DNA of 64,000 nt from an uncultured Alphaproteobacteria bacterium (GTDB lineage: Bacteria; Pseudomonadota; Alphaproteobacteria; Rhizobiales; Xanthobacteraceae), in the NCBI GenBank assembly GCA_963783115.1, contig CAWAMK010000036.1, forward strand, positions 98,703 to 162,702, read 5' to 3'. Each line of letters begins with the position of its first letter. The stretch's first letter is position 1. This document shows, piece after piece, positions 44,467 to 64,000 of this stretch. The notes below the pieces were generated by a model. It ran no database searches. It worked only from the letters and a program-made list of their open reading frames with translations, and was not told the origin of the DNA. Made by a program: the position numbers and the translations under genes.

Positions 44467-45886
44467 CTACATGTTCAGCACACGCCCATAGGCGTCCAGC
44501 ACCGCTTCCTTCATCATCTCCGACAGCGTCGGATGCGGGAAGATCGTGTGCATCAGCTCTTCTTCGGTGGTCTCCAGGTTCATCGCGACCACGTAGCCCT
44601 GGATCAGTTCGGTCACTTCCGCGCCGATCATGTGCGCGCCGAGCAGTTGTCCGGTCTTCTTGTCGAAGATCACCTTGACCAGGCCCTGGTCCTCGCCGAG
44701 CGCGATCGCCTTGCCGTTGCCGACGAACGGGAAGCGGCCGACGCGGATCTCGCGGCCGCCCTCCTTCGCTTTCGCCTCGGTCAGTCCGACGGAAGCGATC
44801 TGCGGGTGGCAATAGGTGCAGCCGGGAATCAGGTTCTTGTCCATGGCGTGCGGATGCAGGCCCTTGATCGCCTCGATGCAGACCACGCCTTCGTGCTCGG
44901 CCTTGTGCGCCAGCATCGGCGGGCCCGCGACGTCGCCGATGGCGTAGATGCCGGGAACGTTGGTCTTGCCGTAGCCGTCGATCACGACGCAGCCGCGGTC
45001 GGTCTTGACGCCGAGCTTCTCGAGGCCGAGGCCCTCGATATTGCCGACCACGCCGACCGCCGAGATCACCCGCTCGAACTCGACCGTCTGCGGCTTCTTG
45101 CCGTCGTCGATGGTGGCGACGACGCTGTCGGCCTTCTTCTCGAGTTTCGTGACCTTGGTGCTCGAGAGGATCTTGATGCCCTGCTTCTCGAAACGCTTGC
45201 GCGCCAGGCCGGCGATCTCGGCGTCCTCGACCGGGCAGGATCTGCGGCAGCACCTCGACCACGGTGACGTCGGCGCCCATGGTGTGGAAGAACGACGCGA
45301 ACTCGATGCCGATCGCGCCGGAGCCGACCACCAGCAGCGATTTCGGCATCCGCTCCGGCACCATCGCCTCGAAATAGGTCCAGATCAGCTTCTTGTCGGG
45401 CTCGAGCCCCGGCAGCACGCGCGGCCGGGCGCCGGTCGCGACGATGATGTGCTTGGCCTGATAGGCGCCCTCGCCCAGCACGCCCTTCGGCGCCTCGACG
45501 GCGGACTTCTTCACGGTGACCTTGCCGGGCGCGTCGATCGACGCCTCGCCCCAGATCACCGTGACCTTGTTCTTCTTCATCAGGAAGCCGACGCCGTCAT
45601 TGAGGCGCTTTGAAACGCCGCGCGAGCGCGCCACCACGGCCTTCGGATCGAACGAGACGTTTTCGGCGGAGAGCCCGTAATCCTTGGCGTGCTGCATGTA
45701 GTGATAGATTTCCGCCGAGCGCAGCAGCGCCTTGGTCGGGATGCAGCCCCAGTTCAGGCAGATGCCGCCGAGATAGGATTTTTCGACGATCGCGGTCTTG
45801 AAGCCGAGCTGGGCGGCGCGGATCGCGGTGACGTAGCCGCCGGGGCCGGAGCCGATGATGATGACGTCGAAGGATGTGTCGGCCAT
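44467..45886 (-). CDS. lpdA: Dihydrolipoyl dehydrogenase E3 (frameshift near 45232)
   Basis: GSGPGG, GGICLNWGCIPTK, HPTLSE. Confidence 0.96.
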
Positions 45887-45910
45887 GGCGGCTCCCGTTC
45901 ATCTTACTAT

Positions 45911-46002
45911 CGTCAGGGTTCGTCAAAGCGAAGCGTGCCCACCGCCTTCCAACGCTATGAAATAAGGTGGGCACGGCGCCTTGCGCCTTTGCCCACCCTA
46001 CG
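45911..46002. repeat. GTAG-type REP pair (left end degenerate)
   Basis: AAAGCGAAGCGTGCCCACC...GGTGGGCAC...TTTGCCCACCCTACG. Confidence 0.8.
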
Positions 46003-46019
46003 TATTCACCGTCCTCGTC

Positions 46020-47366
46020 TCACACCATCATCATCACGGGGTTTTCGATCAGCCGCCTGAACGCGCCGATCAGCTCCGCGCCGAGCGCGCCGTCGATGGC
46101 GCGGTGATCGCAGGACAGCGTCACGCTCATGATGTGCGCGGCCTCGATCTTGCCGTTCCGCACCACCGCCCGCTCCTCGCTGGCGCCGACCGCGAGGATG
46201 GTCGACTGCGGCGGGTTGATGACGGCGGTGAAGTGGCTGATGCCGAACATGCCGAGGTTGGAAACCGACGACGTGCCGCCCTGATATTCCTGCGGCTTGA
46301 GTTTTCGCGTCCGCGCGCGGGCCGCCAGGTCCTTCATCTCGTTGGAAATGGTCGACAGCGACTTGCTCTCGGCGTTGCGGATGATCGGCGTGATCAGCCC
46401 GCCGGGCATGGCGACGGCGACGCCGATGTCGGAATGCTTGTGCTTGACCATGCCGGCCTCGGTCCAGCTGACATTGCAGTCCGGCACCTGCTGCAACGCG
46501 ACCGCGAGCGCCTTGATGACGAAGTCGTTGACCGAGAGCTTGTAGAGCGGCTTCTTCTCCTTGTCCTTCGGTGCGGCGGCATTGATCTGCTCGCGCGCGT
46601 CGAGCAGCCGGCCGATGTCGCAGTCGATGGTGAGGTAGAAGGTCGGAACGCTCTGCGTCGCCGCCGTCAGGCGCTGCGCGATGGTGCGGCGCATGCCGTC
46701 GTGCGGCACGATCTCGTAGGAGCCTTCCTCGAACAGCGAAAGGATCTGCTTGTCCGACATCGCCGGCGCGATCGCAGGCGCTGCACCGGGTGCCGCGGCC
46801 GGCGCCTTCAGGCCCTTGCCGGACTTGGCGCCCTCGACGTCGCGGGCGACGATGCGGCCATGCGGGCCGGAGCCGTTGATGCGCGCGATGTCGATGCCGG
46901 CTTCCTTGGCGAGGCGGCGGGCGAGCGGCGACGAGAAGACGCGCGCGTGGCCATTGGTCTTGGCAGGTGCAGCGGCAGCCTGAGGCGCCGGTGCGGGTGC
47001 TGCTGCGGGCGCGGGTGCCGGCGTTGGGGCCGCTGGCGCAGGCGCAGCAGCGGGCTTCGGGGCTTCGGCGGCCTTCGGTGCGGGCGCGGCCCCCGCGCCT
47101 GCGCCGGCCGCCTTCACGTCCTCGCCGTCGCCGGCCAGGACCGCGATGATATCGTTGACCGGAACATCCTGCGTGCCTTCGGGCACCAGGATCTTCGCGA
47201 TCGTGCCCTCGTCGACGGCTTCGACTTCCATCGTCGCCTTGTCGGTCTCGATCTCCGCGATCACGTCGCCGGACTTGACCTTGTCGCCCTCTTTCTTGAG
47301 CCACTTGGCAAGGTTGCCCTTTTCCATCGTGGGCGACAGCGCGGGCATCAAAATGTTGATCGGCAT
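46020..47366 (-). CDS. pdhC: Pyruvate dehydrogenase E2, dihydrolipoamide acetyltransferase
   Basis: Lipoyl [25 protein letters not shown]. Confidence 0.95.
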
Positions 47367-47368
47367 TG

Positions 47369-47674
47369 TCAGTGACCTTGTTGCGACCGGGGCATGGTGG
47401 AGCCGATATCGGTCGGCCGGTTGATTTCGGCTTCGAACATGTCGACGATACGCGTCAGCGCCTCGTCCTCGGTGTAGCCGCTCTCGCGTGAATAGGCGCG
47501 GGCGGCGTGGCGCGCGATATCGACCAGCAGCATGCCCCACATGTCAGGCTCCTCGAAGGCGCGCTGGAACGCGATCGAGAGCCCGCCGTCGACCACGAAG
47601 GCGCGCAGCACCTCGACGGCATCCTCGCGGCCGATGACGTCGGGCGGCAATGGCTGTTCGCTGGGACCGGGCAT
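47369..47674 (-). CDS. DUF5076-like small protein within the pdh operon
   Basis: [12 protein letters not shown]...EVLRAF...[13 protein letters not shown] (101 aa). Confidence 0.75.
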
Positions 47675-47682
47675 GAGTCGGC

Positions 47683-49090
<1,408 letters not shown>

Positions 49091-49191
49091 ATCGGCTCCC
49101 GAAATCGTCAGTCAGTTTGTTCTGCGCTCGTTTGGTTTGTACGTAGCGAGGGGCGCAAAACCTGTCGCGGCTTTGCGTAATATTGGTTGGA

Positions 49192-50212
49192 TTACCGGTA
49201 GACGTCGGTCCAGAGCTCGGACGCATCGGGCTCGGGATCGCGCTGGGCGAAATCCGCCGACGCGTTGACGATCTCGCGCACCTCGGCGTCGATGGCCTTC
49301 AATTCCTGCTCGCTGACCTTTGCTGCCAGCAGGCGGTTGCGAACCTGCTCGATCGGGTCCTGATCGTGGCGGATCTTCTCGACCTCCTCGCGGGTCCGGT
49401 ACTTTGCCGGATCGGACATCGAGTGGCCGCGGTAGCGGTAGGTCTGCATTTCCAGGATGAACGGCCCCTTGCCGGCGCGGCACCAGGCGACCGCCTCGTC
49501 GCCCGCGGCCTTGACGGCGCGGACGTCCATGCCGTCGACCTGCTGGCCCGGAATGTTGAAGGAGATGCCGCGCTTGGAGAAATCGGTCTGCGCCGAGGAG
49601 CGCGTCACCGACGTGCCCATGGCGTAGCGGTTGTTCTCGATCACGTAGATCACCGGGAGCTTCCACAGCTCCGCCATGTTGAAGCTCTCGTAGACCTGGC
49701 CCTGGTTGGACGCGCCGTCGCCGAAATAGGCGACGCTGACGAAATCATTGCCGCGGTAGCGGTTGGCGAAGGCCAGCCCCGTCCCGAGCGAGACCTGGGC
49801 GCCGACGATGCCGTGGCCGCCGTAGAAATTCTTCTCCATGCTGAACATGTGCATGGAGCCGCCCTTGCCCTTGGAATAGCCGCCGCGGCGCCCGGTGAGT
49901 TCGGCCATCACGCCGTTGGCTTCCATCCCGCAGGCCAGCATGTGGCCGTGGTCGCGGTATCCGGTGATGACCTGATCGCCCTGCTTCAGGGCCATCTGCA
50001 TGCCGACGACGACGGCTTCCTGGCCGATATAGAGATGGCAGAAACCGCCGATCGCACCCATGCCGTAGAGCTGGCCGGCCTTCTCCTCGAAGCGGCGGAT
50101 CAGCAGCATGTCCCGCAGCGCGGCCAGTTCCTGCGCCTTGGTGAATTCCGGTGGAGACCCGTTTGCCTTTCTGCCCTGATTCCTTGTCGACGCTTTTCTT
50201 GGGTGCGGCCAT
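49192..50212 (-). CDS. pdhA: Pyruvate dehydrogenase E1 alpha (frameshift near N-terminus)
   Basis: GFCHLYIGQE, GDGASNQG..N ThDP motif, RYRGHSMSD. Confidence 0.96.
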
Positions 50213-50422
50213 GGCAAATCCGGATGAGAGAGACGGTCAACCCTCTCTATCCCAACTCAAACCCCCGCGAAAGGATTGCCTGCGCTGCAGGAAAATAATG
50301 CTATGCCGCAGTGCAGCGCGGCGCGACATTTTCGAAACTGATTTTGCGTTTTTTTGAAATTTGCGGACCGGCGAGCCGGCGCCGGCTCGGCGTAACCGGC
50401 GTGCGTGACAGCGGCCTGAAAA

Positions 50423-50740
50423 TCAGTTCGGCTTCAGCGTCCGGATCAGGTCGCGCGGATTGGCGTAGTCGAGCTGGTAGCGTGCCCGCTCGTCCAGCAT
50501 GTCGGGGTCGACCCGGTTGGAGCGCAGCAGCGAAACCCGCTGCTCGCCCTCCGCCCGCTCCCGCTTCAGCCGCGCCAGTTCCGAGGTCAGCGCGATGATC
50601 TCCTGATCGAGTTCCTGGCGCGCGTTCAGCCCGTATTTGCCGGTATAGGCGTTGATACCGAAATAGCCGACCATCAGCGCCGCCATCGTGTAGAGGGCGA
50701 GGCCGGTCAGGATGGATTTCAGGCGCGTGCGGGAGACCAT
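50423..50740 (-). CDS. ftsB: Septum formation initiator FtsB/DivIC
   Basis: TM helix, coiled coil, DPDMLDERAR; eno-ftsB-pdhA context. Confidence 0.85.
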   Translation of the reverse strand: MVSRTRLKSILTGLALYTMAALMVGYFGINAYTGKYGLNARQELDQEIIALTSELARLKRERAEGEQRVSLLRSNRVDPDMLDERARYQLDYANPRDLIRTLKPN

Positions 50741-50762
50741 GGGCCCAAGATGCGACGGCCGG

Positions 50763-50778
50763 GTTAATGGAATCCTAA
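50763..50778 (-). promoter_or_regulatory. CtrA-like box upstream of ftsB
   Basis: Minus strand TTAG-gattcca-TTAAC, one mismatch to TTAA-N7-TTAAC. Confidence 0.5.
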
Positions 50779-50835
50779 AACGCCCGATGGGGGCACGGGT
50801 CCCCCACCGTTATTGCCGGGCGGCCGTGAGCCCGT

Positions 50836-51390
50836 CTACCTGTTCTGCTTCTCGACGAACGCCGCATAGGCGTCGATATATTGCTGCAGCACCTTCTGCA
50901 GGGCTTCCTTGGTGAGCTGGCCTTTGTCGTCGAAGGCGTCGCCGACGCCGTTCAGGTAGATTTCGGGCTGGCCCATGATCGGACCGGAAATGCCCGGCAA
51001 GATGTTCTGCAGCGTCTTGGCCGCGCTGACGCCACCGAGCGGCCCGGGAGAGTTGCTGACGATGCCGATCGGCTTGCCGAGGAACGAGCTCTTGCCGTAA
51101 GGGCGCGAGGCGACGTCGATGGCGTTCTTCAACACGCCGGGGATCGCGCGGTTGTATTCGGGGGTCACGAACAGCACGCCATCCGACTTCTGCAGCTTTT
51201 CGCGGAACGCCAGCCAGTCGGCCGGGGGATTGGCTTCCAGATCCTGGTTGAAGAAGGAAATCCCTTCGAGCGTCGTCACGTCGAGCTTCAGCGAAGCCGG
51301 CGCCAGCTTTGCCAGCGCATTGGCGATCTTGAGCGAAAAGCTCTCCTTGCGAAGCGAGCCTACGATCGTGACGATGGTATGGGTGGCCAT
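50836..51390 (-). CDS. NAD(P)H-dependent FMN reductase (ChrR/YieF-like)
   Basis: GSLRKES, TPEYN, LKNAID.ASRPYG. Confidence 0.92.
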   Translation of the reverse strand: MATHTIVTIVGSLRKESFSLKIANALAKLAPASLKLDVTTLEGISFFNQDLEANPPADWLAFREKLQKSDGVLFVTPEYNRAIPGVLKNAIDVASRPYGKSSFLGKPIGIVSNSPGPLGGVSAAKTLQNILPGISGPIMGQPEIYLNGVGDAFDDKGQLTKEALQKVLQQYIDAYAAFVEKQNR

Positions 51391-51568
51391 GGATTATCCC
51401 TTTTGAAGCAAAAGCGCCTGCGCTCTCTTAAGCCGGATCGGCGGAAAGATGCAAGTGCATGAACAGCGACAGTTCCGGAAACGCATGCGTTTGCTTCGGG
51501 AGTATCATGCCGAACGAAGCAGGCCGCCCGCGCGGACCGCCTGCCCCGTCCGCATGCCGGTCGATGCG

Positions 51569-52706
51569 TCAGCCCTTGCTCGGGTTGATCAAGAACTTCT
51601 CGCCGGTGGAGCGCTTGTTGTAGACCGCGATGTTGGAGAGCTGCAGCGCCTCCTGCAGCGACACCACCTGCGTGTAGTGGCTGGCGAATGTCGTCTTGAG
51701 TTCGCTCGCCACGCGCTGGCGCAGGCGGCCGATTTCGGCGGGGCCGATCTTCTGCAGGAACGGCGTCAGCAGCCAGCCGCCAACCGCCCAGGTCAGACCG
51801 AAAGCACGGCTCAACTCGGTCGGACCCGTATTCGAGACTGCCATAGATATAGACCTGCTTGAACACGTTGGAGCCGTAGCGGCTGTATTCCTTGGCGGTC
51901 TTGTTGGCCGCGACCTCCATGCAGGTGAGGATCTGGCCCGCCAGCTTGCCGCCGCCGATGGCGTCGAACGCGATCGTGGCGCCGGTTTCCACCAGCGCGG
52001 CGGTCAGATCGTCCATGAAGGTATCAGCGCTGGAATCGACGACATATTTGGCGCCGATCTTGTGCAGGATGTCGGCCTGCTCCTTGCTGCGCACGATGTT
52101 GACGAGGCCGATGCCGTCCTTGATGCAGATCTTGTTGAGCATCTGCCCGAGGTTCGAGGCGGCGGCGGTGTGCACCAGCGCCTTGTGGTTTTCGCGCCGC
52201 ATGGTCTCGGTCATGCCGAGCGCGGTCAGCGGATTGACGAACCATGACGCGCCGTCGGCGGGCGTGGCGCCCGCCGGGATCTCCATCACATCCCGCACCT
52301 TCACGGTGCGGTACTGCGTATACATCGCGCCGCCGATCATCGAGACGTTCTTGCCCATCAGCGCCTTCGCAGCATCCGAGGCCCCGGTCCGGATCACGAC
52401 GCCGGCGCCCTCGTTGCCGACCGGGAGCGACTGGTCGAGCCGCCCCGCCATCATCCGCATGGCCGCATCGGGCATTTTGGCGGTGACCACGGGCGCGTCC
52501 TTGCCGCCGGAAACCTTGGCGGTCGACATGTCGGCCGGGCCGATCAGGAGCCCGAGATCGGACGGGTTGATCGGCGTCGCCTCGACGCGGACCACGACCT
52601 CGTCGTCGGCCGGCTCAGGCGTCGGAATGTTCACCAGCGACAGTTCGAGTTCGCCGCTCTTCTTGAGCAGCGAACGCAGTTGAAGCCCGCTCTTGCCGTC
52701 GCTCAT
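51569..52706 (-). CDS. MDR-family (quinone oxidoreductase-like) dehydrogenase (frameshift near 51835)
   Basis: PINPSDL, GNEGAG, VNPLTA, HTAAASNLG. Confidence 0.8.
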
Positions 52707-52736
52707 CGCACGTCTCCCCCAATTTTGTGTTGGTTA

Positions 52737-54798
<2,062 letters not shown>

Positions 54799-55155
54799 AC
54801 CATCCGATGGTCCCTGCCCTCATGTCCGGTCGGCACCTCGCCAAGGCGCGCCATCACGGGATCAGAAGTCAGGGTTACACCAGAAATGCGTCCGATAAAT
54901 CGGTCAGATTGTCGATGACCCGAGCGGTGCAGCGGCCGCCGGTGATGCGCTATGACGCGGCCAGTCTGGCGGCCGTGCTCGGTCCGCGGTTTCGGCTGCT
55001 GGCAAGCCGTGTAGAGGAGCACCGGACGCCCTGGGATGCCTCCCAGATTTTCCAGTTCAGCAGGTTTTCATTTGCCGCTGCGAGCGCGGAAGCTGGTCCT
55101 TCCCGCGCCTGACCAAGCCAGATCTTCGTCAAAGTATTGCGACGTTGTCACGGTC

Positions 55156-56388
55156 TCAGTGCCCGCTCAGCACCAGCGTCTTGATCGGCAGCAGCAGCGC
55201 CTGAATGCGCAGCAGCATCGCGTGGACAAGCCCAGTCGCATCGACGACATGCAACCCGAAGCTCTTGAACGTGCTGAGTTTGCCCGACGCGATCAGCTCG
55301 TGATTGCTGGTGTAGGCGTTGGCGATACAACTGCTGCCGGGCGTCACGCCCTCCAGCCCGCCCTTGAAGATCGGCTCCATGAAAACGAGAATGGTGCCCG
55401 GACGCGCGGTGTTTTGCACCTCGAGCAGCTGCTCGCCGCCCCTGAACTGGCCCGCCGCGATGTAATCCTGCACGTCGGTGATCACCATCGGAATGATTGT
55501 CCACGGCTTGGAAATGCAGGTAGCCTCGGCCACCATTCCGACTTTCATGACCTGTCGTCGATCTGGCCGAATCCCGCCGAAGTGAGCGTCGCCCGGCACC
55601 TTCGGGAATCAGTACGCCGGCGGATCGTATCATGGGATTGACGATGTCGCCCGGCCGCAGCAGGAATTGCTCGACACGGCCATCCACGCCGGCGCGAATG
55701 AAGGTCTTGTCGAGATCGACCTGCGCTTCGGCGAGCGCTGCTTCTGCGCTTGCCTTCTCTGCGGGGAGAAGCGCGCTCAGCCGCGTCGTCGCGGATTGTT
55801 TGGAAGCGGTCGCGGCGTCGAGGGAGCCCTGACGGCCCGCGACGGCCACTTCGAGCTTTTCGATATCGCGCTGCGGCACGATGCCCGGATTGCGCTTCTG
55901 CAGTTCGCGCTTGACGTCGAGTTCGTCGTTAGCCTGCTGCAGCGAGCTCTTGGCTTCCTGAAGCTGGCCTTCCGCCTTCAGGATATCGGCCTGTGCTGCC
56001 AGCATCGATGCGTCGACTTCGGCGATCTTGCGCCTGGCCGTCTCCAGCGACGCCTGCTGCTTGGAATTGTCCAGCCTGAAGATCACGTCGCCTTTCTTCA
56101 CCGGCGCGCTGAAATCGACGTGAACTTCCGCAACCCGGCCGATGGTCTCGGGGATGATCGGCACGGTACGGATAGTACAACGTCGCCGACGTGGTCGACG
56201 GGTGAAAGTAGAAGATCATCGTGATCAGCGAGACCGTGAGCATCAGGCAGGCGACGATGCCGTATCGCAGTTCGAACCAGACCGAATAGAGCGTGATTTC
56301 GTGGCCGATGCGCTTGCCCTGCCGATAGCGGCGATAGAGATAGTCCGGCAGGATCGTCAGCAGCGAACAGAGGATGCAGCTCAAGCAT
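55156..56388 (-). CDS. HlyD-family membrane fusion protein (YibH-like; frameshifts)
   Basis: N-terminal TMs, GRVAEVHV...VKKGDVIF, coiled coil, IRAGVDGRV. Confidence 0.8.
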
Positions 56389-56849
56389 GGCTGTGCACCT
56401 CGCTCTTGGCGCCAGCGGCCTTCTCGATGCGGGCCTTGGCCTCGTCGGTTGCGGCAGCGTGCGCAGCGTCGCCAACTGGCGGCTCGGTCGGGTCCTGTTC
56501 AGGCGGAACGCCGGCCATCTTCTCGACCGATCCGGCGATCCGGCGCAGCGGCGTGCTGAAGTCCGGCAGGTCGATCATGGCGAGGAACAGGCCGATCACC
56601 CAGTACAGGTGGTTGTGCGTGAACAGCGACAGCAGGCCGAGCACGGCCACGATTTCAAACTGGAACTTCTGCGACTTGTGGGCCATCCGCTCTGGCAGCG
56701 AGTGCAGGTGCAAATAGAAATTACCGACCGCGAGAACGGCAACGATCAGAAAAATGCCGACCGCGACCATCAGAACGTCGGTGTCGCCTGGCGCCGTGAT
56801 GAAGGACCGGCAGGTGATGGGGCGCGCTGGGATGAATCGACTCGCTCAG
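56381..56849 (-). CDS. DUF3302/YibI-like membrane protein (probable CTG start; frameshift near 56810)
   Basis: LHSLPERMAH, LGLLSLFTHNHLYWV; GGAGG RBS; overlaps the HlyD start. Confidence 0.65.
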
Positions 56850-57018
56850 GGCAATCCTCCGTCCTGCACGGACTAACGCATCGGGTCGATCGACGCCGCC
56901 TGATCTTTGCACAATATCGGGGCTTGGCAAGTGCCGAACGTGTCCACTGCAACGCAAGAGCGGCTGACCTCGGTCATTCGCGTTGAACCAGACGGCCCAT
57001 TACGGCAGACCACCATAC

Positions 57019-57995
57019 ATGCACAATACCTTATTCTGCCGTTCTCGGACTGATTGCCCCGCTCTGCCTCGCCGCGACGATCGCGATCGCCGCACCGCCC
57101 GCCAAGACCGCCGAAGACCGCTACATCGCCGCGCGCGACGCCGCGATCCAGAAAATCTCGGCGATCTACGATGCCGGCAACCGCGACGAAGACGCGCGCA
57201 AGGCCGAGGAAGCCGCCAGCGCCGATCTCCTGGAGCAGATGCGCGTCATTCTCAGCGAGCCCGACCGCGACGGTTTTGGTCCGGCCGAAGCTGAACGTCG
57301 ACACCTTCTCCAAAGGCGACGAAGGTTTTGGCACGCTCGACGGGCTGCGGTTCGATGCAAAGCTCGGCAGCAACGGCGAGACGGCGGGCCAGAACGGCGC
57401 CGACGGCAAGTATGTCGAGCCGAAGTCGCATATCATCATCACCACGCGATCGCTGTTCGAACGCTGGCTGCGCGCGCACAAGGACTGGTGGGGCAAGAAA
57501 ACCAAAAACGTGCCGCAGCAGATCGGCGCGGCACTGAAGGACGAGAGCTTTTACACCCAGGCGACATCGAGCGGCGCCGCGGTGGTGAATTTCAATTCGC
57601 TGCCGATCGAAAAGCCGGCCGGCGCGAGCTTCGCCCACGCCATGCTGGCCGGGCGAACCCAATCCGAACTTCCCGACGCCGCCGACCATGTGTTCGTCTC
57701 GGCGATCGCCAATGGCAAGGTCTACATCGCCTATGGATCGATCGATCCGCCGGTGCAGGTACCGGACTGCCTCGCCATCCGGAGCGACTACATCAAGAAG
57801 GCCGAACAGGCAGCAGACGACCTGAGTTCTGGAAAAATCGGCCGCAAGGCCTACGATAAACTCGGCGACATCAGACAAAAGGGCGACGACGCCTACAAGC
57901 GTTGTTTCACCCAGAATGCGCCAAATCGGCCGTTCTTCGCCGAGGCCGGGCGGCAGGCGGAGAGGTTATTGTCGGCAGCCCTCAATACGCGCTGA
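57019..57995 (+). CDS. Exported hypothetical protein (frameshifts)
   Basis: Signal-like LGLIAPLCLAATIAIAA, then EDRYIAARD; main frame KLNVDTFSKGDEGFG...SAALNTR. Confidence 0.65.
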
Positions 57996-58020
57996 GCAGG
58001 TCGACCTCGGCGTTGGCGAG
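57970..58020 (+). repeat. Left copy of the 51-bp imperfect direct repeat bounding the islet
   Basis: 45/51 identical to 61052-61102 by manual alignment; minus strand reads LANAEVDLLSAY*. Confidence 0.9.
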
Positions 58021-58083
58021 TGGCGAGACCAAGGACAATCGAAAACGTACTCCATCAGGAGCCGTGCAGGCAGGTCGATCGAC

Positions 58084-58097
58084 TTGATCTGGATCAA
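58084..58097. promoter_or_regulatory. FNR/FixK box
   Basis: Perfect TTGAT-ctgg-ATCAA about 107 bp upstream of ATG 58204. Confidence 0.85.
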
Positions 58098-58203
58098 CAC
58101 CTGTCCGCTCTACAGGAAGACTAAAAAGCCGAATACCTATGCTCGCGTAGAAGCCGTCGTCGCATCCCCGGATAGTGAGCGTTCCCTTTGTGAGCGAGTG
58201 CGC

Positions 58204-61005
58204 ATGAGCGAGGCCGACGAGAGCCAATACCGCCTTCAGGCAGTCCTCGACACGGCGGTTGACGGCATCATCACGATCGACGAGCACGGGATCATACAGA
58301 GCGCCAACCCGGCCGTGGGCAGGCTTTTCGGATTCGCGTCTGCAGCCGAACTGGTTGGCCGCAACGTCTCAATTCTCATGCCGGCCAGCCATGGCCAACA
58401 ACACGACGAATATATCGCACGCTACATACGGACGGGCGAGGCACGGGTCGTCGGGATCGGGCGCGAGCTCGAAGCTGTGCGGCGTGACGGCTCCATCTTC
58501 CCGATCGAGCTGGCCGTCAGCGAGGTGCCCGGAGACGGCGCGCGGCATTTTACCGGTATCATCCGGGACATCAGTGCACGCAAGCAGGCCGAGCAGGCCC
58601 TGCGCGAGAGCCAGGCGCGGATCCAGGCCGTTCTGAATACGGCCGTGGACGGCATCCTGACAATCGATCAGCGTGGCATCATCGAGAGCGCCAACCCGTC
58701 CGCTGGCCGCCTGTTCGGCTACGATCCGGCGGAACTCATTGGCCAAAACATATCGATGCTGATGCCGGCGGAGCATGCCAAGGCTCATGACGGCTATATC
58801 GAACGCTATCTCAGAACCGGCGAAGCACGCATTGTGGGCATCGGCCGGGAGGTGGAGGGACTGCGACGCGACGGGTCGACCTTTCCGGCAGATCTCGCGG
58901 TGAGCGAGGTGCGCTTCGGTGACCAGCTTCGTTTCACCGGCATCATCCGGGACATCACCGTTCGAAAAAATGCAGAACAGGCCCTGCTCAGGGCCGACGC
59001 CATGAAGGACGAATTTCTCGCCAATACGTCGCACGAGCTGCGGACGCCCCTCAACGGCATCATCGGGATTGGCCAATCGATGCTGGACGGGGCAACCGGC
59101 CCGCTGAGCGAAGAGCAGCAGCGCAATCTCGGTATGGTCGTCGCCAGCGGCCGGCGCCTCGCCAGCCTCGTCAATGACATCCTGGATTTCTCGAAGCTGC
59201 GTCACGAGACGGTCGAGCTGCGCCGTCGACCTACCGATATTCATGCTCTCACGGAGCTTGTTCTGGCGATTTCCCGCACCCTCGTGGGCAAACGCGCGCT
59301 GCGCCTGTTCAACCGGATCGATGCTCAGGTTCCCCTGGTCGAGGTGGACGAAGACCGCGTACAGCAGATCCTGTTCAACCTGGTCGGTAACGCGGTCAAG
59401 TTCACGCCGGCCGGCGTCGTCGAGGTCTCGGCAAAGGTGCGGGACGAATGGCTGGATTTGACGGTGAGCGACACCGGAGCCGGCATCAGCGCCGAACGGC
59501 TCGAGACGATATTCGAATCGTTTTCGCAGGGCGATGGATCCGCCGCGCGCGAACAGGGCGGCACCGGTCTTGGGTTGGCCATCAGCAGGCAGCTGGCTGA
59601 GCTTCATGGCGGAAGCATCAACGTGACATCGGCCGTCGGTGTCGGATCGCAATTTACACTTTCGCTTCCGCTAAGCCCGACCACGCGAGAGATGCTGACA
59701 CTCGAAAGCCGGCCGGACGAAGCTGTCAGCCGAATCCTTCCGGATGTTGAATTGAACCGGAGGACGGCGGGAGCCGGCGCACGATCATCCGCCGGTGCCG
59801 GCCTGCGGGTTCTGGTGGTGGACGACGAGCCGGTAAATGTTCAGGCTCTGGTGAATTTCCTGACCCTGGCAAAGTATGACGTCGTCACGGCCGCGGACGG
59901 GCAAGAGGCGCTTGATCTTCTGGCAGGGGAAAGACCGTGCGACATCGTCCTGCTCGACGTGATGATGCCGAAGCTGTCGGGCTTCGATGTCTGCCAGCGC
60001 ATTCGTGAACATTACTCGCCCGCGGAACTGCCGGTGATCCTGCTGACGGCCAAGAACCGCGTCTCGGACCTCGTCATGGGGTTCGGCGTGGGAGCAAATG
60101 ATTATCTGACCAAGCCCTTTGCCAGCGACGAACTGCTGGCCCGCGTCAGTGTCCATCTCGAACTCGCCAAGATCAGCGACAGCTATTCGAGGTTCGTACC
60201 CCGGCAGTTTCTGGAGCAACTGGGCAAGGAGCGCATCGTCGATGTTGCGCTTGGCGACCAGGTGCAGCGCGAAATGACCGTGCTTTTCTCGGACATCCGC
60301 AACTTCACCCAAATGTCGGAAGGCATGAGCCCCGCGGAAACGTTCGGATTCGTGAACCAGTATCTCGGCGCGATGGAGCCTGCCATCTCGGGCCATAGCG
60401 GGGTCATCGACAAATTTGTCGGTGACGCCGTCATGGCGCTGTTTCCTCGCCGGGCCGACGATGCCGTACAGGGAGCGCTGGACATGATCCGGCGGCTGGA
60501 GGCCTGGAATGCACAGCGGGTCGACAGAAGCGAGCCGCCGGTCAAGATCGGCATCGGTCTGCATACCGGGAGCCTGATGCTCGGTACGGTGGGTGCGCGT
60601 GACCGGATGGATACCACCGTCATCTCGGACGCGGTAAACCTCGCCTCTCGCGTCGAGGGCCTCACCAAGACCTACCGCGTTCCGCTGATCATCACCGAGG
60701 CGACCTTCCTCGCGCTGAACAATCCCGCAGACGTTTCGGTTCGCCGAATCGACCAGGTTCTCGTTCAGGGAAAATCGCAGCCTGTCGTGCTCTACGAGGT
60801 GCTGGACGCCTGCGACCTGCCAGCCCGACAGGCGAAACAGCGCGCACTGGCGGACTTCGAAAAGGGCGAGGCGCTTTACGAGGCCCGGGACTTCTCAGGC
60901 GCCATCGGTTATCTGGAGCGCGCCTTGGCTCGCAATCCATCGGACACAGTTGTCGAGGTGCTGCTCGAACGTGCTCACCGCTTCTCCGGGACAGCGGAGG
61001 AATGA
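58204..61005 (+). CDS. Hybrid sensor: PAS-PAS-HisKA-HATPase-REC-class III adenylate cyclase-TPR-like
   Basis: Two FixL-like PAS domains (HDEYI..GIGRE; HDGYI..GIGRE), H box SHELRTPL, N/G1/G2 boxes, REC DD..D..T..KP, cyclase FSDIRNFT / DKFVGDA / DAVNLASR; intact ORF. Confidence 0.92.
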   Translation: MSEADESQYRLQAVLDTAVDGIITIDEHGIIQSANPAVGRLFGFASAAELVGRNVSILMPASHGQQHDEYIARYIRTGEARVVGIGRELEAVRRDGSIFPIELAVSEVPGDGARHFTGIIRDISARKQAEQALRESQARIQAVLNTAVDGILTIDQRGIIESANPSAGRLFGYDPAELIGQNISMLMPAEHAKAHDGYIERYLRTGEARIVGIGREVEGLRRDGSTFPADLAVSEVRFGDQLRFTGIIRDITVRKNAEQALLRADAMKDEFLANTSHELRTPLNGIIGIGQSMLDGATGPLSEEQQRNLGMVVASGRRLASLVNDILDFSKLRHETVELRRRPTDIHALTELVLAISRTLVGKRALRLFNRIDAQVPLVEVDEDRVQQILFNLVGNAVKFTPAGVVEVSAKVRDEWLDLTVSDTGAGISAERLETIFESFSQGDGSAAREQGGTGLGLAISRQLAELHGGSINVTSAVGVGSQFTLSLPLSPTTREMLTLESRPDEAVSRILPDVELNRRTAGAGARSSAGAGLRVLVVDDEPVNVQALVNFLTLAKYDVVTAADGQEALDLLAGERPCDIVLLDVMMPKLSGFDVCQRIREHYSPAELPVILLTAKNRVSDLVMGFGVGANDYLTKPFASDELLARVSVHLELAKISDSYSRFVPRQFLEQLGKERIVDVALGDQVQREMTVLFSDIRNFTQMSEGMSPAETFGFVNQYLGAMEPAISGHSGVIDKFVGDAVMALFPRRADDAVQGALDMIRRLEAWNAQRVDRSEPPVKIGIGLHTGSLMLGTVGARDRMDTTVISDAVNLASRVEGLTKTYRVPLIITEATFLALNNPADVSVRRIDQVLVQGKSQPVVLYEVLDACDLPARQAKQRALADFEKGEALYEARDFSGAIGYLERALARNPSDTVVEVLLERAHRFSGTAEE

Positions 61006-61051
61006 TCTCGAAGCCTGGTCGCATCAATCCGGATTTGGCTACGTGCCAATG

Positions 61052-61102
61052 TGTCCGCGGCGCTCAATACGCGCTGAGCAGATCGACCTTGGCATTGGCG
61101 AG
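61052..61102 (+). repeat. Right copy of the 51-bp direct repeat (contains the glsA stop)
   Basis: tgtccgcggcgctcaatacgcgctgagcagatcgaccttggcattggcgag. Confidence 0.9.
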
Positions 61103-62942
61103 GATCAGGCGCCGCGCCAGCAGGCCGGACAGATTTCGCATGATCTTCATCGCGGTCTGCGGGTGCAGCCGGCGGTAGTCGTCAAAACTGTCGAGCGGCA
61201 GTTCGAGGCACGTCACCGGCGTATCGGCCCATACGTCGGCGCTGCGGTACTGCTCGATGATCGCCATCTCGCCGAATTCCATGCCGGGCCCGAGCGAGGC
61301 CAGCCGCACGCCGCTCGGCAGCTTCACGCTGACCATTCCGCTCTGCAGGAAGAACAGCGAGTTGGCGGGCTCGCCGGCGCAGACGATGCGCTGGCCGGCC
61401 TGATAGCGGCGCGCGGTCGACAGCTCGGCCAGCGCTGCGATTTCCTCCGGCGGCGAGGTCGGCCAGCAACGCCTGTTCGCCGAGGTGGCTGGTTTCCTTC
61501 GACGAGGTGAAGCCGCCATAGCGATAGATCACCTGGTCCTCCGCCCATTCGATGGCTTCATCGAGCAGCGCGAAGCGCCGCAGCCTTTGCGGCTCGGCGG
61601 TCCGCGCCCGAACCGACGTCCACACCGGCAGACGTCGCCTCGACACCGGTCAGTATCGCCGTGACGCCGGCATTGCCGAGCATGGTGAGGTTCTCGCCAA
61701 GCAGCTGCGCGCCGGCCGCGGTCAGGTCCGGCACGCGCCGGAAATCGAGAATCAGGAGCGGCGCGTTCGGCGGCTCACCGGCCAGCCGCCGCGTCACATA
61801 GTCGATCGCCGCGAAATTCAGCGCGCCGACCAGTTCGATCACCCTGATGTCGCTGTGGCGATCGTCGAGAATCTGCTGCTCGTGCGGCTGCCGGCTGCGG
61901 CGCGACGAGATGCCGAAGATGTCGTAGTCGGCGATGACGCAGGTGCGGACGTCGGCGCTTCGGTTGAGCATGTGCAGGTCGAAGCGGCCCGAAAGCGCTT
62001 CGCACACCTTCAGGCCGCGCACGCTGTTGCCATGGCTGTCGAGGCACGGCGAGAAGGTGCCGAGCCCCAATTGCGAGGGAAGTGCTGCGACGATGCCGCC
62101 GCCGACGCCGCTCTTGGCGGGAATGCCGACGCGATAGATCCACTCCCCCGCATAGTCATACATGCCCGAACTGGTCATGACCGACAGCGTGCGGGCGACG
62201 ATATTGGGTGAGATGACCTGAACGCCCGTCACCGGATTGACGCCGCGATTGGCGAGCGTCGCCGCCATGACGGCAAGATCGCGCGCGGTGACCAGGATGG
62301 CGCATTGCCGGAAATAGGTATCGAGGACGGCATCGACATCGTCCTGCAGCACCAGGTAATTGCGCAGCAGCCAGGCGATGGCGCGGTTGCGGTTGCCGGT
62401 GAGCGGCTTCCGAGGCGTGCACGGCGTCGTCGACGTCAAGCTCGCGTCCGGCGAACAGACTGAGCTTCTCGCGGATGCGCTCGAACGCGTATGCGCCAGC
62501 GGCCTCGATGGATCAGCCCCGAACAGGCGATCGCACCGGCATTGACCATCGGGTTGAACGGCCGGTTGTCGTTGGTCAGCCGGATCGAATTGAACGCCTC
62601 CCCGCTCGGCTCGACGCCGATCGCCGCCGCCACGCGCTCCTCGCCGACCATGTCGAGCGCGAGCGCAAACACGAAGGCCTTTGATACCGACTGGATGGTG
62701 AAGGGTACCCGGCTGTCGCCGACCTCATAGACGTGGCCGTCGATGGTCACGAGGCCGACGCCGAAATGCGCCGGATTGGCGCGCTTCAGCTCCGGGATGT
62801 AATCGGCGAGCGCACCGGAATCATCCGATTTGAATTCCTCGTAGCATCCCTTCAGAAAGCGCTGGAGCGGCGGCTCGTTGGCATATCCGGTATTTCCGAG
62901 GGCGAAATTGCTTTTGGCCGGGCGGCTAACTTGGGCGTCCAC
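61064..62942 (-). CDS. glsA: Glutaminase with C-terminal STAS and cNMP-binding domains (several frameshifts)
   Basis: ADYIPEL, QSVSK, NPMVNAGAI, GMYD, PAKSGVGGG; STAS LILDFRRV; cNMP cassette FGEMAI..RSADV. Confidence 0.92.
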
Positions 62943-62971
62943 ATCATCACCATGCAAATGGCGAGAACTCA

Positions 62972-62987
62972 AGCAATCCGCATGCCA
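62972..62987 (-). promoter_or_regulatory. Sigma54 -24/-12 promoter of glsA
   Basis: Minus strand TGGCAT-GCGGA-TTGCT with exact GG-N10-GC spacing, 30 bp upstream of the GTG start. Confidence 0.75.
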
Positions 62988-63050
62988 TGGGCGGCTACTT
63001 GCCGCGAAGCTATGCACCCGGCTGCACGAAAGGCATGCGTCATCCTGACG

Positions 63051-64000
63051 CTAGCCTACGCCGTTCGCGATGAAGGGCCTAGCTCGCCGGCTGGTCCGCC
63101 GGCCGCGTCTGGCGCAGCAGCCTGCGCGCAGACAATGCCGAGCGCGATCATGATCGGCCGCCGCGGTCAGCAGGGTCGGCATCTTGCCGGCATGCTGGAT
63201 GCCGAAACCATAGGCGATCGGGCCGACGGTCTGGCCCATGAAGAAGAAGAACGAATGCAGCGACAGCGCGGTCGCGCGGGCTTCGGCCGACAATTCGCTG
63301 GCGAACACCTGCAGGCAGCCGTGGATCATGTAGAAGCCCCAGCCCATGAACAGCAGGCTGACCGCATGGATCTTTACGCTGGGACCGAACGCGACGACGG
63401 CGAGGTTGCAACCCCACCAGCGTCGCGCCTGAGATCATCATGCCCTTGACGCCGAGCCACGGCAGAAATCGCGAAACGCTCAGCGTGTAGAACAGGCCGC
63501 CGACCGCAAAGCCGGCGATCACGAGGCCGGCGATCGACAGGCTGGTTTCGCCCAGCTCGAACAGAAACGCCGCGATGAAGGGAAACAGCCCGAGCACGCA
63601 GCAGCCTTCGATAAATACCGCCACGTAACAAAACGCGTTGGGGTTGGAGAAGATGGTGCGATAGCCCTGCTTGAGCGCCGCAAAATTCGTCTTCGGCGGA
63701 CGGGTCAGCGCCGCGCCGCGAAAGCCGGCGGCCACCGCGATCGAGGCCACGATGACCAGAGCCGCCGAGCACGGCCAGAACGCCGCGCCAGCCGAGAAAG
63801 TCGCCGATCAGGCCGGAGACCGAAGCGCCCAGCAGATTTCCGGTCATCGAGCCCATCAGCGTGCGCCCGATCGCGATCTGGCGCTTTTCGGGCCCGACCA
63901 GATCGCTGGTCAGACTGAGCGCGACCGGAAATACGCCGCCGGAGCCGATGCCGGCGAGGATGCGCGACGCGAACAACAGCCAGAACGAATTCGCCATCGC
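63051..64000 (-). CDS. MFS transporter (5' truncated by the window; frameshifts)
   Basis: RILAGIGSGG, GLIGDFLGWR, multiple TM helices, ARATALSLHSFFFFMGQ. Confidence 0.85.

What the first reader, a model, noticed from the sequence alone, without database searches (positions are those of the whole stretch)
57970..62990. Candidate O2 -> cAMP -> glutaminase module: FixK-boxed heme-PAS kinase-adenylate cyclase inserted tail-to-tail with a cNMP-domain glutaminase
Seen in sequence: a PAS-PAS-HK-REC-cyclase gene with a perfect FNR/FixK box ends 58 bp from the stop of a glutaminase that carries STAS and cNMP-binding domains (FGEMAI..RSA cassette) and a sigma54-type promoter. Established: in Bradyrhizobium, FixK2 activates microoxic genes including rpoN1, and cNMP domains bind cAMP or cGMP allosterically. 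Inference: the acquired cyclase makes cAMP in response to O2, and its neighbour is a cAMP-gated glutaminase, which would link oxygen status to glutamine/ammonium flux or acid resistance. I do not know of a described system of this kind, but the adjacency could be coincidental.
Basis: partly seen in the sequence, partly recalled or inferred. Interest (0 to 1): 0.85.

Follow-up and report, generated by a model that had tools for sequence, protein, structure and literature searches.

The report
Oxygen-sensor cyclase beside cyclic-nucleotide glutaminase
A gene for a likely oxygen-sensing enzyme that makes the messenger cAMP sits tail-to-tail with a glutaminase gene carrying a cAMP-type sensor; the pairing is real, but it occurs only in one small Bradyrhizobium lineage and was assembled by successive insertions, so a working oxygen-to-glutamine circuit is possible but unproven.

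Summary
These are a FixL-like PAS-PAS-kinase-receiver-cyclase gene (58204-61005), a perfect FixK/FNR box (58084-58097), a 58-bp gap to a convergent glutaminase-STAS-cNMP gene (61064-62942, minus strand) and a sigma54-type element (62973-62987).

Three corrections:
- **Broken glutaminase frame.** Four single-base insertions break it in this assembly. Most neighbouring genes are broken the same way, so assembly noise is the likely cause.
- **FixK box.** It did not arrive with the cyclase. Two relatives have the identical box at the same spot in front of a different (HAMP) adenylate cyclase.
- **Mobile cyclase.** The FixL-type cyclase is a roughly 2.9-kb unit found in several other contexts without a glutaminase.

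Only one clade has a cyclase next to this glutaminase paralog: 5 of the 30 loci inspected, plus two named MAG contigs. Those loci carry two different cyclases behind the same invariant box. That is suggestive, but it does not prove a dedicated O2 -> cAMP -> glutaminase module. I put that reading at about 0.3.

This scan has already noted cNMP-glutaminases beside cyclases on other DNA.

The parts
57213..57995 (+). Conserved hypothetical gene ('upgene') with no Pfam family. Its last codons (LSAALNTR*) lie inside the left direct repeat.
   Evidence: ORF and translation. No Pfam hit. Orthologs in G004, G146, G066, G120, G087 and G016. One frame break near 57288.
57970..58020 (.). Left copy of the 51-nt direct repeat. 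It is a duplicate of the 3' end of glsA2 together with the overlap with upgene.
   Evidence: family D4, 88% identity. (score 72 against a shuffle maximum of 28). The single-copy overlapping state is seen in G120.
58029..58083 (.). Remnant of the leader/promoter region of a lost HAMP adenylate cyclase gene (hampAC2). The 1.82-kb gene body present in G004 is missing here.
   Evidence: Junction comparison of the window, G146 and G004. Homology to the region upstream of hampAC2 in G066 and G210.
58084..58097 (.). FixK/FNR-type box TTGATCTGGATCAA.
   Evidence: Unique in the window. The 14-mer is invariant in the window (G000), G146, G004, G066 and G210 while its flanks vary. Absent upstream of both cyclases in all their other contexts. 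Consensus TTGANCNNGATCAANG is quoted in PMC4999443.
58113..61051 (+). FixL-type cyclase cassette: the stretch shared at 89-97% identity with copies in unrelated genomic contexts.
   Evidence: The cassette is 95-98% identical to G146 and G004, while the flanks are only 77-93% identical.
58204..61005 (+). Gene for the tandem FixL-like PAS hybrid histidine kinase fused to a receiver and an adenylate cyclase (933 aa, frame intact). Domains: PAS1 about 58231-58608, PAS2 about 58615-58977, HisKA 59002-59205, HATPase 59347-59676, receiver 59809-60147, cyclase 60265-60780, weak TPR 60856-60975.
   Evidence: Pfam. Matches to solved structures. Relatives 98% identical.
61006..61063 (.). 58-bp spacer between the two convergent stop codons. 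No terminator-like hairpin was found in it.
61052..61102 (.). Right copy of the 51-nt direct repeat. This is the true 3' end of glsA2.
61064..62942 (-). glsA2: glutaminase (61969-62816), STAS (61636-61863) and cNMP-binding domain (61178-61411, phosphate-binding cassette 61235-61276). GTG start at 62942. The frame is broken by +1 insertions at 62506, 62406, 61630 and 61451.
   Evidence: Pfam on the fragments. Pfam on the intact G004 ortholog. Insertions. Start codon and upstream alignment. Cassette conservation.
62973..62987 (-). Sigma54-type -24/-12 element TGGCAT-N5-TTGC, about 30 nt upstream of the GTG start.
   Evidence: Perfect TGGCAC-N5-TTGC in G004, G146, G504 and G015. Absent upstream of 8 core-paralog genes and 3 distant glsA genes.
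63148..64000 (-). MFS transporter gene upstream of glsA2 on the same strand. It is frame-broken in this assembly and runs off the window.
   Evidence: Pfam MFS_1 on the intact G004 ortholog.

Best explanation
All the parts are real, and each is probably functional. The neighbourhood, however, was assembled opportunistically. It is not a conserved module.

**The glutaminase.** glsA2 is an accessory, sigma54-dependent paralog of a glutaminase-STAS-cNMP enzyme. It was found in 44 of 201 genomes sampled from the genus. Its 3' end originally overlapped a convergent gene by 14 nt.

**History of the slot in one clade (inferred from comparisons).**
1. A FixK box plus a TarH-HAMP adenylate cyclase (hampAC2) entered, duplicating the glsA2 tail.
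2. A mobile cassette of about 2.9 kb entered the roughly 14 nt between that box and the glsA2 stop. It encodes a FixL-like double heme-PAS kinase-receiver-adenylate cyclase. It lost its own upstream region and came under the resident box.
3. In the window's lineage the HAMP cyclase body was then deleted.

**Predicted working (inferred, not shown).**
- A FixK-type regulator turns the gene on at low O2.
- O2 binding to the heme-PAS domains sets kinase activity.
- The phosphoryl group passes to the fused receiver and modulates the class IIIb cyclase, so cAMP output follows O2.
- GlsA2 probably binds a cyclic nucleotide. It would read this cAMP only as one of many inputs, because the genome has about 15 or more class III cyclases.

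Nothing shows a private line between the two genes.
For: **Domain content and catalytic or ligand motifs**
-.

**Slot history**
- G120 has the overlapping convergent genes and no insert.
- G066 and G210 have the box 14 nt past the glsA2 stop and about 142 nt upstream of hampAC2.
- G004 has both cyclases, divergent around the box.
- The window and G146 share an identical deletion junction.

**Cassette mobility**
- Five further contexts in the genus share only positions 58113 to about 61010: G004:C17, G138:C27, G093:C2 = G138:C17, G141:C17 and G194:C39.
- Some of these lie next to IS110, DDE or IS91 transposase genes.
- More distant homologs (67-79% identity) have unrelated neighbours.

**Lack of conservation**
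- glsA2 loci without a cyclase.
- G138 and G141 hold both genes on different contigs.
- The core paralog is far from all cyclases.

**Many cyclases per genome**
- 21-51 in relatives; 14 contigs of this incomplete assembly hold class III cyclase domains.

**Separate control**
- The two genes are convergent and have different promoter types: a FixK box against a sigma54 element.
Against: - Two unrelated adenylate cyclases have occupied the same slot next to a cNMP-binding enzyme. Cyclases are well under 1% of genes, so this is unlikely for random insertions.
- The FixK box is invariant in all five cyclase-bearing alleles. It occurs with neither cyclase anywhere else.
- The cassette allele appears to have moved between diverged backgrounds. 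The cassette is 95-98% identical while the flanks are 77-93% identical. The glsA2 tree pairs G000 with G210. That pattern fits selection for the arrangement.
- Outside the genus, G557 has a glutaminase-STAS-cNMP gene about 10 kb from one of only 4 cyclases in its genome.
- Earlier scan notes report similar pairings.
Confidence: 0.5

Rival explanations
1. This is a dedicated local circuit. In this clade the slot downstream of glsA2 is kept filled with an adenylate cyclase induced at low O2 through the FixK box. The cAMP it makes is the main allosteric signal for the cNMP domain of GlsA2. Glutamine hydrolysis would then follow oxygen status. Replacement of the HAMP cyclase by the FixL-type cyclase would be a functional substitution.
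For: - Two different Lys/Thr-type adenylate cyclases sit in the same slot.
- The FixK box is invariant in 5 of 5 cyclase-bearing alleles and is specific to the slot.
- In G066 and G210 hampAC2 lies about 170 nt downstream of glsA2 on the same strand, so co-transcription is possible.
- The phosphate-binding cassette of the cNMP domain is invariant.
- The cassette allele has spread across backgrounds.
- The same arrangement occurs in two named Bradyrhizobium MAG contigs.
- G557 has a comparable cluster.
Against: - All genomes with the pairing are close kin, so there are at most two insertion events.
- 25 of the 30 glsA2 loci inspected have no adjacent cyclase, and none was found near any core glsA1 locus examined.
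- Both cyclases occur mostly elsewhere.
- cAMP diffuses, and each genome has many cyclases.
- In the window the two genes are convergent and have unrelated promoters.
- There are no biochemical data on any glutaminase of this architecture: literature searches found none.
Confidence: 0.3
2. In this particular strain glsA2 is a dead gene. The four +1 insertions would be real mutations, so no glutaminase is made and any coupling is a relic.
For: - The four insertions are specific to the window and absent from five relatives.
- They are not in long homopolymer runs.
- Their density (4 in 1.9 kb) is somewhat above the local average of about 0.8 per kb of coding sequence, while the neighbouring 2.8-kb cyclase gene has none.
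Against: - Eight of the 13 genes compared with G004 across about 19 kb are frame-broken in the same way.
- So are the second glsA copy on contig C1 and the FixK-like genes on C33.
- The assembly has 46 contigs and 77.9% completeness.
- Its closest relatives are long-read MAGs by their record titles.
- Apart from the insertions the coding sequence is well kept: 91-96% nucleotide identity to G210, with intact motifs.
Confidence: 0.1
3. The FixL-like protein acts mainly as a kinase for a separate response regulator, in the manner of hFixL-FxkR or FixL-FixJ, and feeds the FixK cascade. The cyclase domain would be a side output with nothing to do with glutaminase.
For: - The PAS-kinase half matches FixL structures at E 1e-27 to 1e-32.
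- In two other contexts the gene lies next to FixK-type regulator genes: G093:C2 = G138:C17, and Bradyrhizobium sp. CCH5-F6.
Against: - No response-regulator gene lies next to it in the window.
- The receiver and cyclase are fused in frame in all full-length homologs, and the kinase-receiver-cyclase core is conserved at about 45-55% identity in cyanobacteria and other phyla. That points to an internal phosphorelay to the cyclase.
Confidence: 0.1

Closest known systems
Hybrid FixL (hFixL) of Rhizobium etli / R. leguminosarum, which signals to FxkR and FixK (PMC7888657, PMC4999443), and classical FixL of Bradyrhizobium and Sinorhizobium (PDB 1DP6, 1D06, 8JS5)
   Same: - The heme-type PAS domain aligns over its full length and keeps the proximal-His motif (HD.YI.RY ... 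GIGR).
- HisKA and HATPase domains follow, with a fused receiver as in hFixL.
   Different: - Both tandem PAS domains here carry the heme-type motif.
- The receiver is followed by a class III cyclase.
- No FixJ or FxkR gene is adjacent.
- Heme binding and O2 response are untested.
Cyanobacterial CyaC-type hybrid kinase-receiver-adenylate cyclases (catalytic domain PDB 1WC0). The family's phosphorelay biochemistry is recalled from memory and was not checked here.
   Same: - The kinase-receiver-class III cyclase chain sits on one polypeptide.
- The catalytic domain matches 1WC0 at E 4e-21.
- The kinase-receiver-cyclase core is about 45-55% identical to many cyanobacterial proteins.
   Different: The sensor module is a FixL-like PAS pair rather than GAF, 7TMR-DISM or Cache-type sensors. 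No member with this sensor has been characterised, as far as the literature searches show.
Pseudomonas aeruginosa CyaB catalytic domain (PDB 3R5G), a class IIIb adenylate cyclase
   Same: It is the best structural-sequence match for both slot cyclases. They share the metal-binding Asp contexts, the substrate Lys (IDKF/YxGD), the Thr of the Lys/Thr pair, and the Asn/Arg of VNxASR.
   Different: The regulatory modules differ (MASE2 in CyaB, from memory).
Sinorhizobium meliloti CyaD1/CyaD2/CyaK-Clr, where a cyclase gene neighbours the gene of its cNMP receptor (recalled from memory and named in earlier scan notes)
   Same: A class III cyclase gene lies next to a gene for a protein with a CAP-type cNMP-binding domain.
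   Different: The receptor here is an enzyme (glutaminase) and not a transcription factor. The adjacency is confined to one clade. No experimental link exists.
Single-domain bacterial glutaminases (GlsA family, PF04960)
   Same: The glutaminase domain matches over its full length (E 3e-114 for the intact ortholog) and has the Ser-x-x-Lys motif QSVSK.
   Different: A STAS plus cNMP-binding tail of about 300 aa follows. The same STAS-cNMP tandem is seen on a SulP permease in G557. Full-length three-domain forms were rare outside the genus: 3 of the non-genus genomes in a 400-genome sample of the phylum.

Membership tests
FixL-type heme-PAS oxygen sensor kinase | PAS domain homologous over its whole length to the FixL heme domain | tested here: met
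   PAS1 gives E 6e-32 to 5e-27 and PAS2 gives E 7e-31 to 7e-28 against 8JS5, 1DP6 and 1D06. Heme-PAS DosP follows at about 1e-14.
FixL-type heme-PAS oxygen sensor kinase | Proximal histidine and the conserved arginines of the heme pocket (His200, Arg206 and Arg220 in B. japonicum numbering, recalled from memory) | tested here: met
   In the printed alignments QQHDEYIARY...GIGR (PAS1) and KAHDGYIERY...GIGR (PAS2) align with RHDSYISRY...GIGR of FixL.
FixL-type heme-PAS oxygen sensor kinase | Binds heme, and O2 switches kinase activity | not testable with these tools
   Needs spectroscopy and kinase assays.
FixL-type heme-PAS oxygen sensor kinase | Works with a FixJ or FxkR response regulator, usually encoded nearby | tested here: not met
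   No response-regulator gene flanks the gene in the window or in its other contexts. The receiver is fused and followed by a cyclase.
Class III (IIIb) adenylate cyclase | Guanylate_cyc domain with two metal-binding Asp, the substrate-defining Lys plus Thr/Asp, and the transition-state Asn and Arg | tested here: met
   Pfam E 8e-18. FSDIRNFT, IDKFVGD, DTTVIS and VNLASR align with CyaB 3R5G. The guanylate cyclase Cya2 (2W01) has Glu where this protein has Lys.
Hybrid kinase-receiver-cyclase (CyaC type) | H-box histidine, ATPase boxes, and a receiver with the acidic pair, phospho-acceptor Asp, Thr and Lys, all in one frame with the cyclase | tested here: met
   SHELRTPLN, NAVKFT, DTGAGI, GGTGLGL, VVDDEP, LLDVMMP, LLTAK and LTKPF are read in the translation. 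Domains.
GlsA glutaminase | Full-length PF04960 domain with the Ser-x-x-Lys catalytic motif | tested here: met
   Fragments score E 5e-38 and 2e-61. The intact G004 ortholog scores 3e-114. QSVSK is present.
GlsA glutaminase | Uninterrupted reading frame in this genome | tested here: not met
   Four +1 insertions. They are probably assembly errors, but this cannot be settled without the reads.
CAP-type cyclic-nucleotide-binding domain | PF00027 match with the phosphate-binding cassette Gly-Glu ... Arg-Ser/Thr-Ala | tested here: met
   Pfam E 2e-19. FGEMA(I/L)...RSA(D/S) is invariant in 9 glsA-linked domains, down to 44% overall identity.
CAP-type cyclic-nucleotide-binding domain | Binds cAMP or cGMP and changes enzyme activity | not testable with these tools
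   Needs ITC and enzyme assays. No paper on this architecture was found.
FixK/FNR-dependent promoter | TTGAT-N4-ATCAA box upstream of the gene, conserved among relatives | tested here: met
   Perfect and unique in the window. The 14-mer is invariant in 5 genomes despite variable flanks. It ends 106 nt upstream of the ATG.
FixK/FNR-dependent promoter | Transcription depends on FixK2 or low O2 | not testable with these tools
   FixK-like genes are present in the genome on contig C33. Expression data are needed.
Sigma54-dependent promoter | GG-N10-GC (-24/-12) element close upstream of the start, conserved among orthologs | tested here: met
   TGGCAT-N5-TTGC here. A perfect TGGCAC-N5-TTGC occurs in G004, G146, G504 and G015, and none upstream of 11 other glsA genes.
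Conserved cyclase + cNMP-glutaminase gene module | Adjacency recurs in independent lineages more often than chance | tested here: inconclusive
   - Within the genus only one clade has it, but with two different cyclases.
- Core glsA1 never has it in 5 complete genomes.
- Outside the genus, 1 of 3 three-domain glsA genes has a cyclase within about 10 kb.

The most novel reading that the evidence does not exclude
A dedicated low-oxygen -> cAMP -> glutaminase circuit. In this Bradyrhizobium clade, adenylate cyclases controlled by a FixK box have been recruited twice to the 3' flank of a sigma54-dependent glutaminase that carries a cyclic-nucleotide sensor. The cAMP they make would allosterically switch glutamine hydrolysis. 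The newer cyclase would itself be a FixL-type heme sensor, making it a bacterial O2-regulated adenylate cyclase.
Probability: 0.3. Interest if true: 0.8.

Novelty: new variant of a known kind. Interest (0 to 1): 0.5.

Why it matters
**If the coupling is real.** It would be the first case in which a bacterial second messenger directly gates a central enzyme of nitrogen metabolism in response to oxygen. That matters for rhizobia, which move between aerobic soil and microoxic nodules.

**If the coupling is not real.** Two parts are still worth testing on their own:
- A FixL-type heme-PAS kinase-receiver-adenylate cyclase. No such O2-to-cAMP sensor was found in the literature searched.
- A glutaminase with a STAS-cNMP tail, whose regulation has never been measured.

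**A third point.** The locus shows cleanly how a promoterless mobile gene can capture a resident regulatory box, and how a 51-nt duplication preserves two overlapping convergent genes when DNA is inserted between them.

Tried and rejected
- **The look-up of encoding contigs.** Gene neighbourhoods were therefore worked out by hand from fetched loci.
- **Direct repeats at the other cassette copies.** I looked for flanking direct repeats around the FixL-cyclase cassette in its other contexts. None exceeded the shuffled controls; G138:C27 has a borderline 19-nt match. I saw no convincing terminal inverted repeats, so the mobilisation mechanism stays unknown.
- **Crp-family neighbours as receptors.** I first counted the Crp-family neighbours of the cassette in G093 and G138 as cNMP receptors. 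That count would have suggested enrichment. I rejected it because these genes and those in CCH5-F6 are FixK-type by sequence: DGRRQI..LPGD.FG.E, a FixK-like helix-turn-helix, and no canonical Arg-Ser/Thr-Ala cassette.
- **FixK box as part of a cyclase.** I tested whether the box travels with the FixL cassette or with hampAC2. It travels with neither.
- **Promoter and terminator scan.** The sigma70 promoter and intrinsic terminator scan of 57800-63200 gave nothing useful.
- **Base composition.** It gives no clear sign of foreign origin: GC is 0.60-0.63 in the cassette against 0.62-0.67 around it.
- **Literature searches.** Searches for cNMP/STAS glutaminases, heme-PAS adenylate cyclases and FixK2-regulated cyclases found no description. 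The FixK2 regulon paper (PMC2566219) is not held.
- **Not run.** No structure or complex prediction was run. The proposed link works through a diffusible ligand, not through protein contact.


Full report
**What is in the window.**

The large plus-strand ORF (57916-61005) has a conserved start at the ATG at 58204 and encodes 933 aa.
- Pfam finds two PAS domains, HisKA, HATPase_c, a receiver and a class III cyclase domain, all well above the cut-offs. A weak TPR signal follows at the C-terminus.
- Each PAS domain, searched alone, matches the heme domains of FixL (8JS5, 1DP6, 1D06) at E 1e-27 to 1e-32 over its full length. Heme-PAS DosP comes next, at about 1e-14.
- In the printed alignments the FixL motif around the proximal histidine (HD.YI.RY ... 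GIGR) is kept in both domains. That this His is the heme ligand is my recollection of the FixL literature.
- The cyclase domain is closest to P. aeruginosa CyaB (3R5G). It has Lys in IDKFVGD, where the guanylate cyclase Cya2 has Glu. It also has the Thr of the class IIIb Lys/Thr pair and the Asn/Arg of VNLASR. An adenylate cyclase is therefore predicted.
- The H-box, the ATPase boxes and the receiver Asp/Thr/Lys are all readable in the translation.

On the minus strand, Glutaminase, STAS and cNMP_binding domains are found.
- The stop codon is at 61064-61066, 58 bp from the cyclase stop.
- The gene is in five frame segments. Alignment with the intact 627-codon frame of the nearest relative (G004), and later with four more relatives, shows four window-specific single-base insertions at 62506, 62406, 61630 and 61451.
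- Across about 19 kb of synteny with G004, 8 of the 13 genes compared are broken in the same way, while the cyclase is intact.
- The second glsA copy on contig C1 and the FixK-like genes on C33 are also split.
- The assembly has 46 contigs and 77.9% completeness. Its relatives are long-read MAGs by their record titles.
- I therefore read the breaks as assembly noise, at about 0.85 to 0.9. Only the reads can settle it.

**Regulatory elements.**
- TTGATCTGGATCAA (58084-58097) is the only perfect FixK/FNR-type box in the 64 kb; 0.03 are expected by chance. It fits the consensus quoted in PMC4999443.
- The sigma54-type element at 62973-62987 is not statistically remarkable on its own. But a perfect TGGCAC-N5-TTGC sits at the same place in G004, G146, G504 and G015 while the surroundings vary. 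It is missing upstream of 8 core-paralog genes and 3 distant glsA genes.
- The window's glutaminase is therefore a distinct paralog, probably sigma54-dependent. I call it glsA2. It was found in 44 of 201 sampled genomes of the genus. A second, core paralog about 60% identical at protein level is in most genomes, including this one.

**Is the cyclase a partner of glsA?**

The FixL-type cyclase was found in only 7 of 201 genomes of the genus, at 9 loci.
- Only the three loci at the orthologous site (G000, G004:C16, G146:C18) adjoin glsA.
- A scan of species-representative genomes added two short Bradyrhizobium MAG contigs with the same arrangement.
- The other copies share with the window only positions 58113 to about 61010, at 89-97% identity. 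They lie in unrelated surroundings:
  - IS110 and IS91/integrase genes and a TPR gene (G138:C27);
  - a FixK-type regulator and a DDE transposase (G093:C2, with a decayed copy in G138:C17);
  - OpgC and a multiheme cytochrome/TPR gene (G004:C17);
  - argininosuccinate synthase and an OmpA-family gene (G141:C17, truncated);
  - a fragment (G194).
- More distant full-length homologs (67-79% identity) in other Alphaproteobacteria and in a Binataceae MAG have yet other neighbours.

From the glutaminase side:
- 25 of 30 glsA2 loci have no cyclase in their 1.5-kb flanks.
- G138 and G141 carry both genes on different contigs.
- In five complete genomes with 21-38 cyclase domains each, the core glsA lies more than 90 kb from the nearest one.

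**History of the slot.**

- **G120.** The upstream hypothetical gene and glsA2 converge and overlap by 14 nt, with nothing between them.
- **G066 and G210.** A TarH-HAMP-class III cyclase (hampAC2) lies directly downstream of glsA2 on the same strand (Pfam; Lys/Thr type).
  - The identical 14-mer box sits about 14 nt past the glsA2 stop and about 142 nt upstream of the hampAC2 start.
  - A duplicate of the glsA2 tail sits next to the upstream gene.
- **G004.** The FixL cassette lies between that box and the glsA2 stop, so the two cyclases diverge from the box.
- **The window and G146.** The 1.82-kb hampAC2 body is missing, with the same junction in both. Its leader remains at 58029-58083.
- **The box belongs to the slot.**
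  - The other FixL-cassette copies instead carry a different conserved stretch of about 75 nt upstream, without a box.
  - The nine other hampAC2-group copies whose upstream sequence could be read also lack the box.
- **The 51-nt direct repeat** is the duplication that lets both overlapping convergent genes keep their ends.
- **G016.** In this one further genome the slot holds a TctC-family gene instead. That statement rests on G016, an unpublished genome.

**Allele movement.**
- The glsA2 tree pairs G000 with G210 and G004 with G146, each with 100/100 support.
- The FixL cassette of G000 is nevertheless 95-98% identical to those of G146 and G004, while the flanks are only 77-93% identical. 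G000's glsA2 is closest to G210, at 91-96%.
- The cassette allele seems to have been exchanged between diverged backgrounds. I infer that this happened by recombination in the repeated glsA2-tail sequences.

**Weighing.**

For a dedicated circuit:
- Two unrelated adenylate cyclases have occupied the slot.
- The box is specific to the slot and invariant.
- The allele has spread between backgrounds.
- The cNMP cassette is invariant.
- One outside case exists: G557 has a glutaminase-STAS-cNMP gene, a SulP-STAS-cNMP gene and a cyclase-AAA16-TPR gene within about 12 kb, in a genome with only 4 cyclases.
- Earlier AI notes from this scan report cNMP-glutaminases beside cyclase operons on other DNA. 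These are leads, not evidence.

Against it:
- All cases in the genus are close kin, with at most two insertion events.
- Most glsA2 genes and all core glsA genes examined lack a neighbouring cyclase.
- Both cyclases live mostly elsewhere.
- There are many cyclases per genome: about 15 or more here and 21-51 in relatives.
- The two genes are convergent and have unrelated promoters.

My reading is that the parts are functional and the neighbourhood opportunistic, with generic coupling through the cAMP pool at most (0.5). The dedicated circuit is a serious rival (0.3).

**Novelty.**
- The protein databases already hold this cyclase architecture under generic names such as 'PAS domain S-box protein'. 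Examples are Bradyrhizobium sp. CCH5-F6 at 87% identity and Ensifer sp. ENS07 at 69%.
- The kinase-receiver-cyclase core is widespread.
- No paper describing a FixL-type adenylate cyclase or a cNMP/STAS glutaminase was found.
- I class the whole finding as a new variant of known kinds of system.

Noticed in passing
window 45000-64000 (whole assembly likely): The assembly carries frequent single-base indels. Eight of the 13 genes compared with the G004 ortholog region are frame-broken, at about 0.8 breaks per kb of coding sequence. Any pseudogene call in this genome needs read-level support.
   Followed up: partly
L012:3213-4946 (G004), L101:7580-9280 (G210), L102:7711-9441 (G066): A TarH-HAMP adenylate cyclase (hampAC2) lies directly downstream of glsA2 in three relatives. 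A core paralog of it (56-62% identical) lies 17-33 kb from glsA2 in at least 20 genomes of the genus. The slot copy may therefore derive from the same chromosomal neighbourhood.
   Followed up: partly
L065/L070 (G557:C1:1483000-1510000): In a distant member of the phylum, three genes lie within about 12 kb: a glutaminase-STAS-cNMP gene, a SulP permease with the same STAS-cNMP tail, and a cyclase-AAA_16-TPR gene. The genome has only 4 class III cyclases. This may be a cyclic-nucleotide island.
   Followed up: partly
L112:11186-14382 (Bradyrhizobium sp. CCH5-F6), L027:9451-10509 (G093), L135 (G138:C17): In two other contexts the FixL-type cyclase lies next to one or two FixK-type (Crp/FNR family) regulator genes. 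This hints that its native setting is a low-oxygen regulatory cluster.
   Followed up: partly
L028:8858-11182 (G004:C17): A second copy of the FixL-type cyclase in G004 overlaps by 4 nt (ATGA) the start of a 774-aa multiheme cytochrome c / TPR protein gene. This suggests translational coupling with a redox protein.
   Followed up: no
L027:5600-5960 (G093:C2), downstream of the cyclase: An inverted repeat of about 20 nt (GGGTCCCAGCCTGTGTGAAAAC ... its complement) brackets about 200 nt just past the cassette, like a small non-autonomous element. Transposase genes (DDE_5, IS110, IS91) are near two cassette copies.
   Followed up: no
window 61006-61063: No terminator-like structure was found between the convergent cyclase and glsA2 genes. 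Box-driven transcription of the cyclase could therefore run antisense into the part of glsA2 that codes for the cNMP domain. That would be a second, RNA-level way in which the two genes might influence each other.
   Followed up: no
window 57213-57995: The upstream gene is conserved in at least six relatives but matches no Pfam family. Its C-terminal eight codons are encoded by the antisense of the glsA2 tail.
   Followed up: partly
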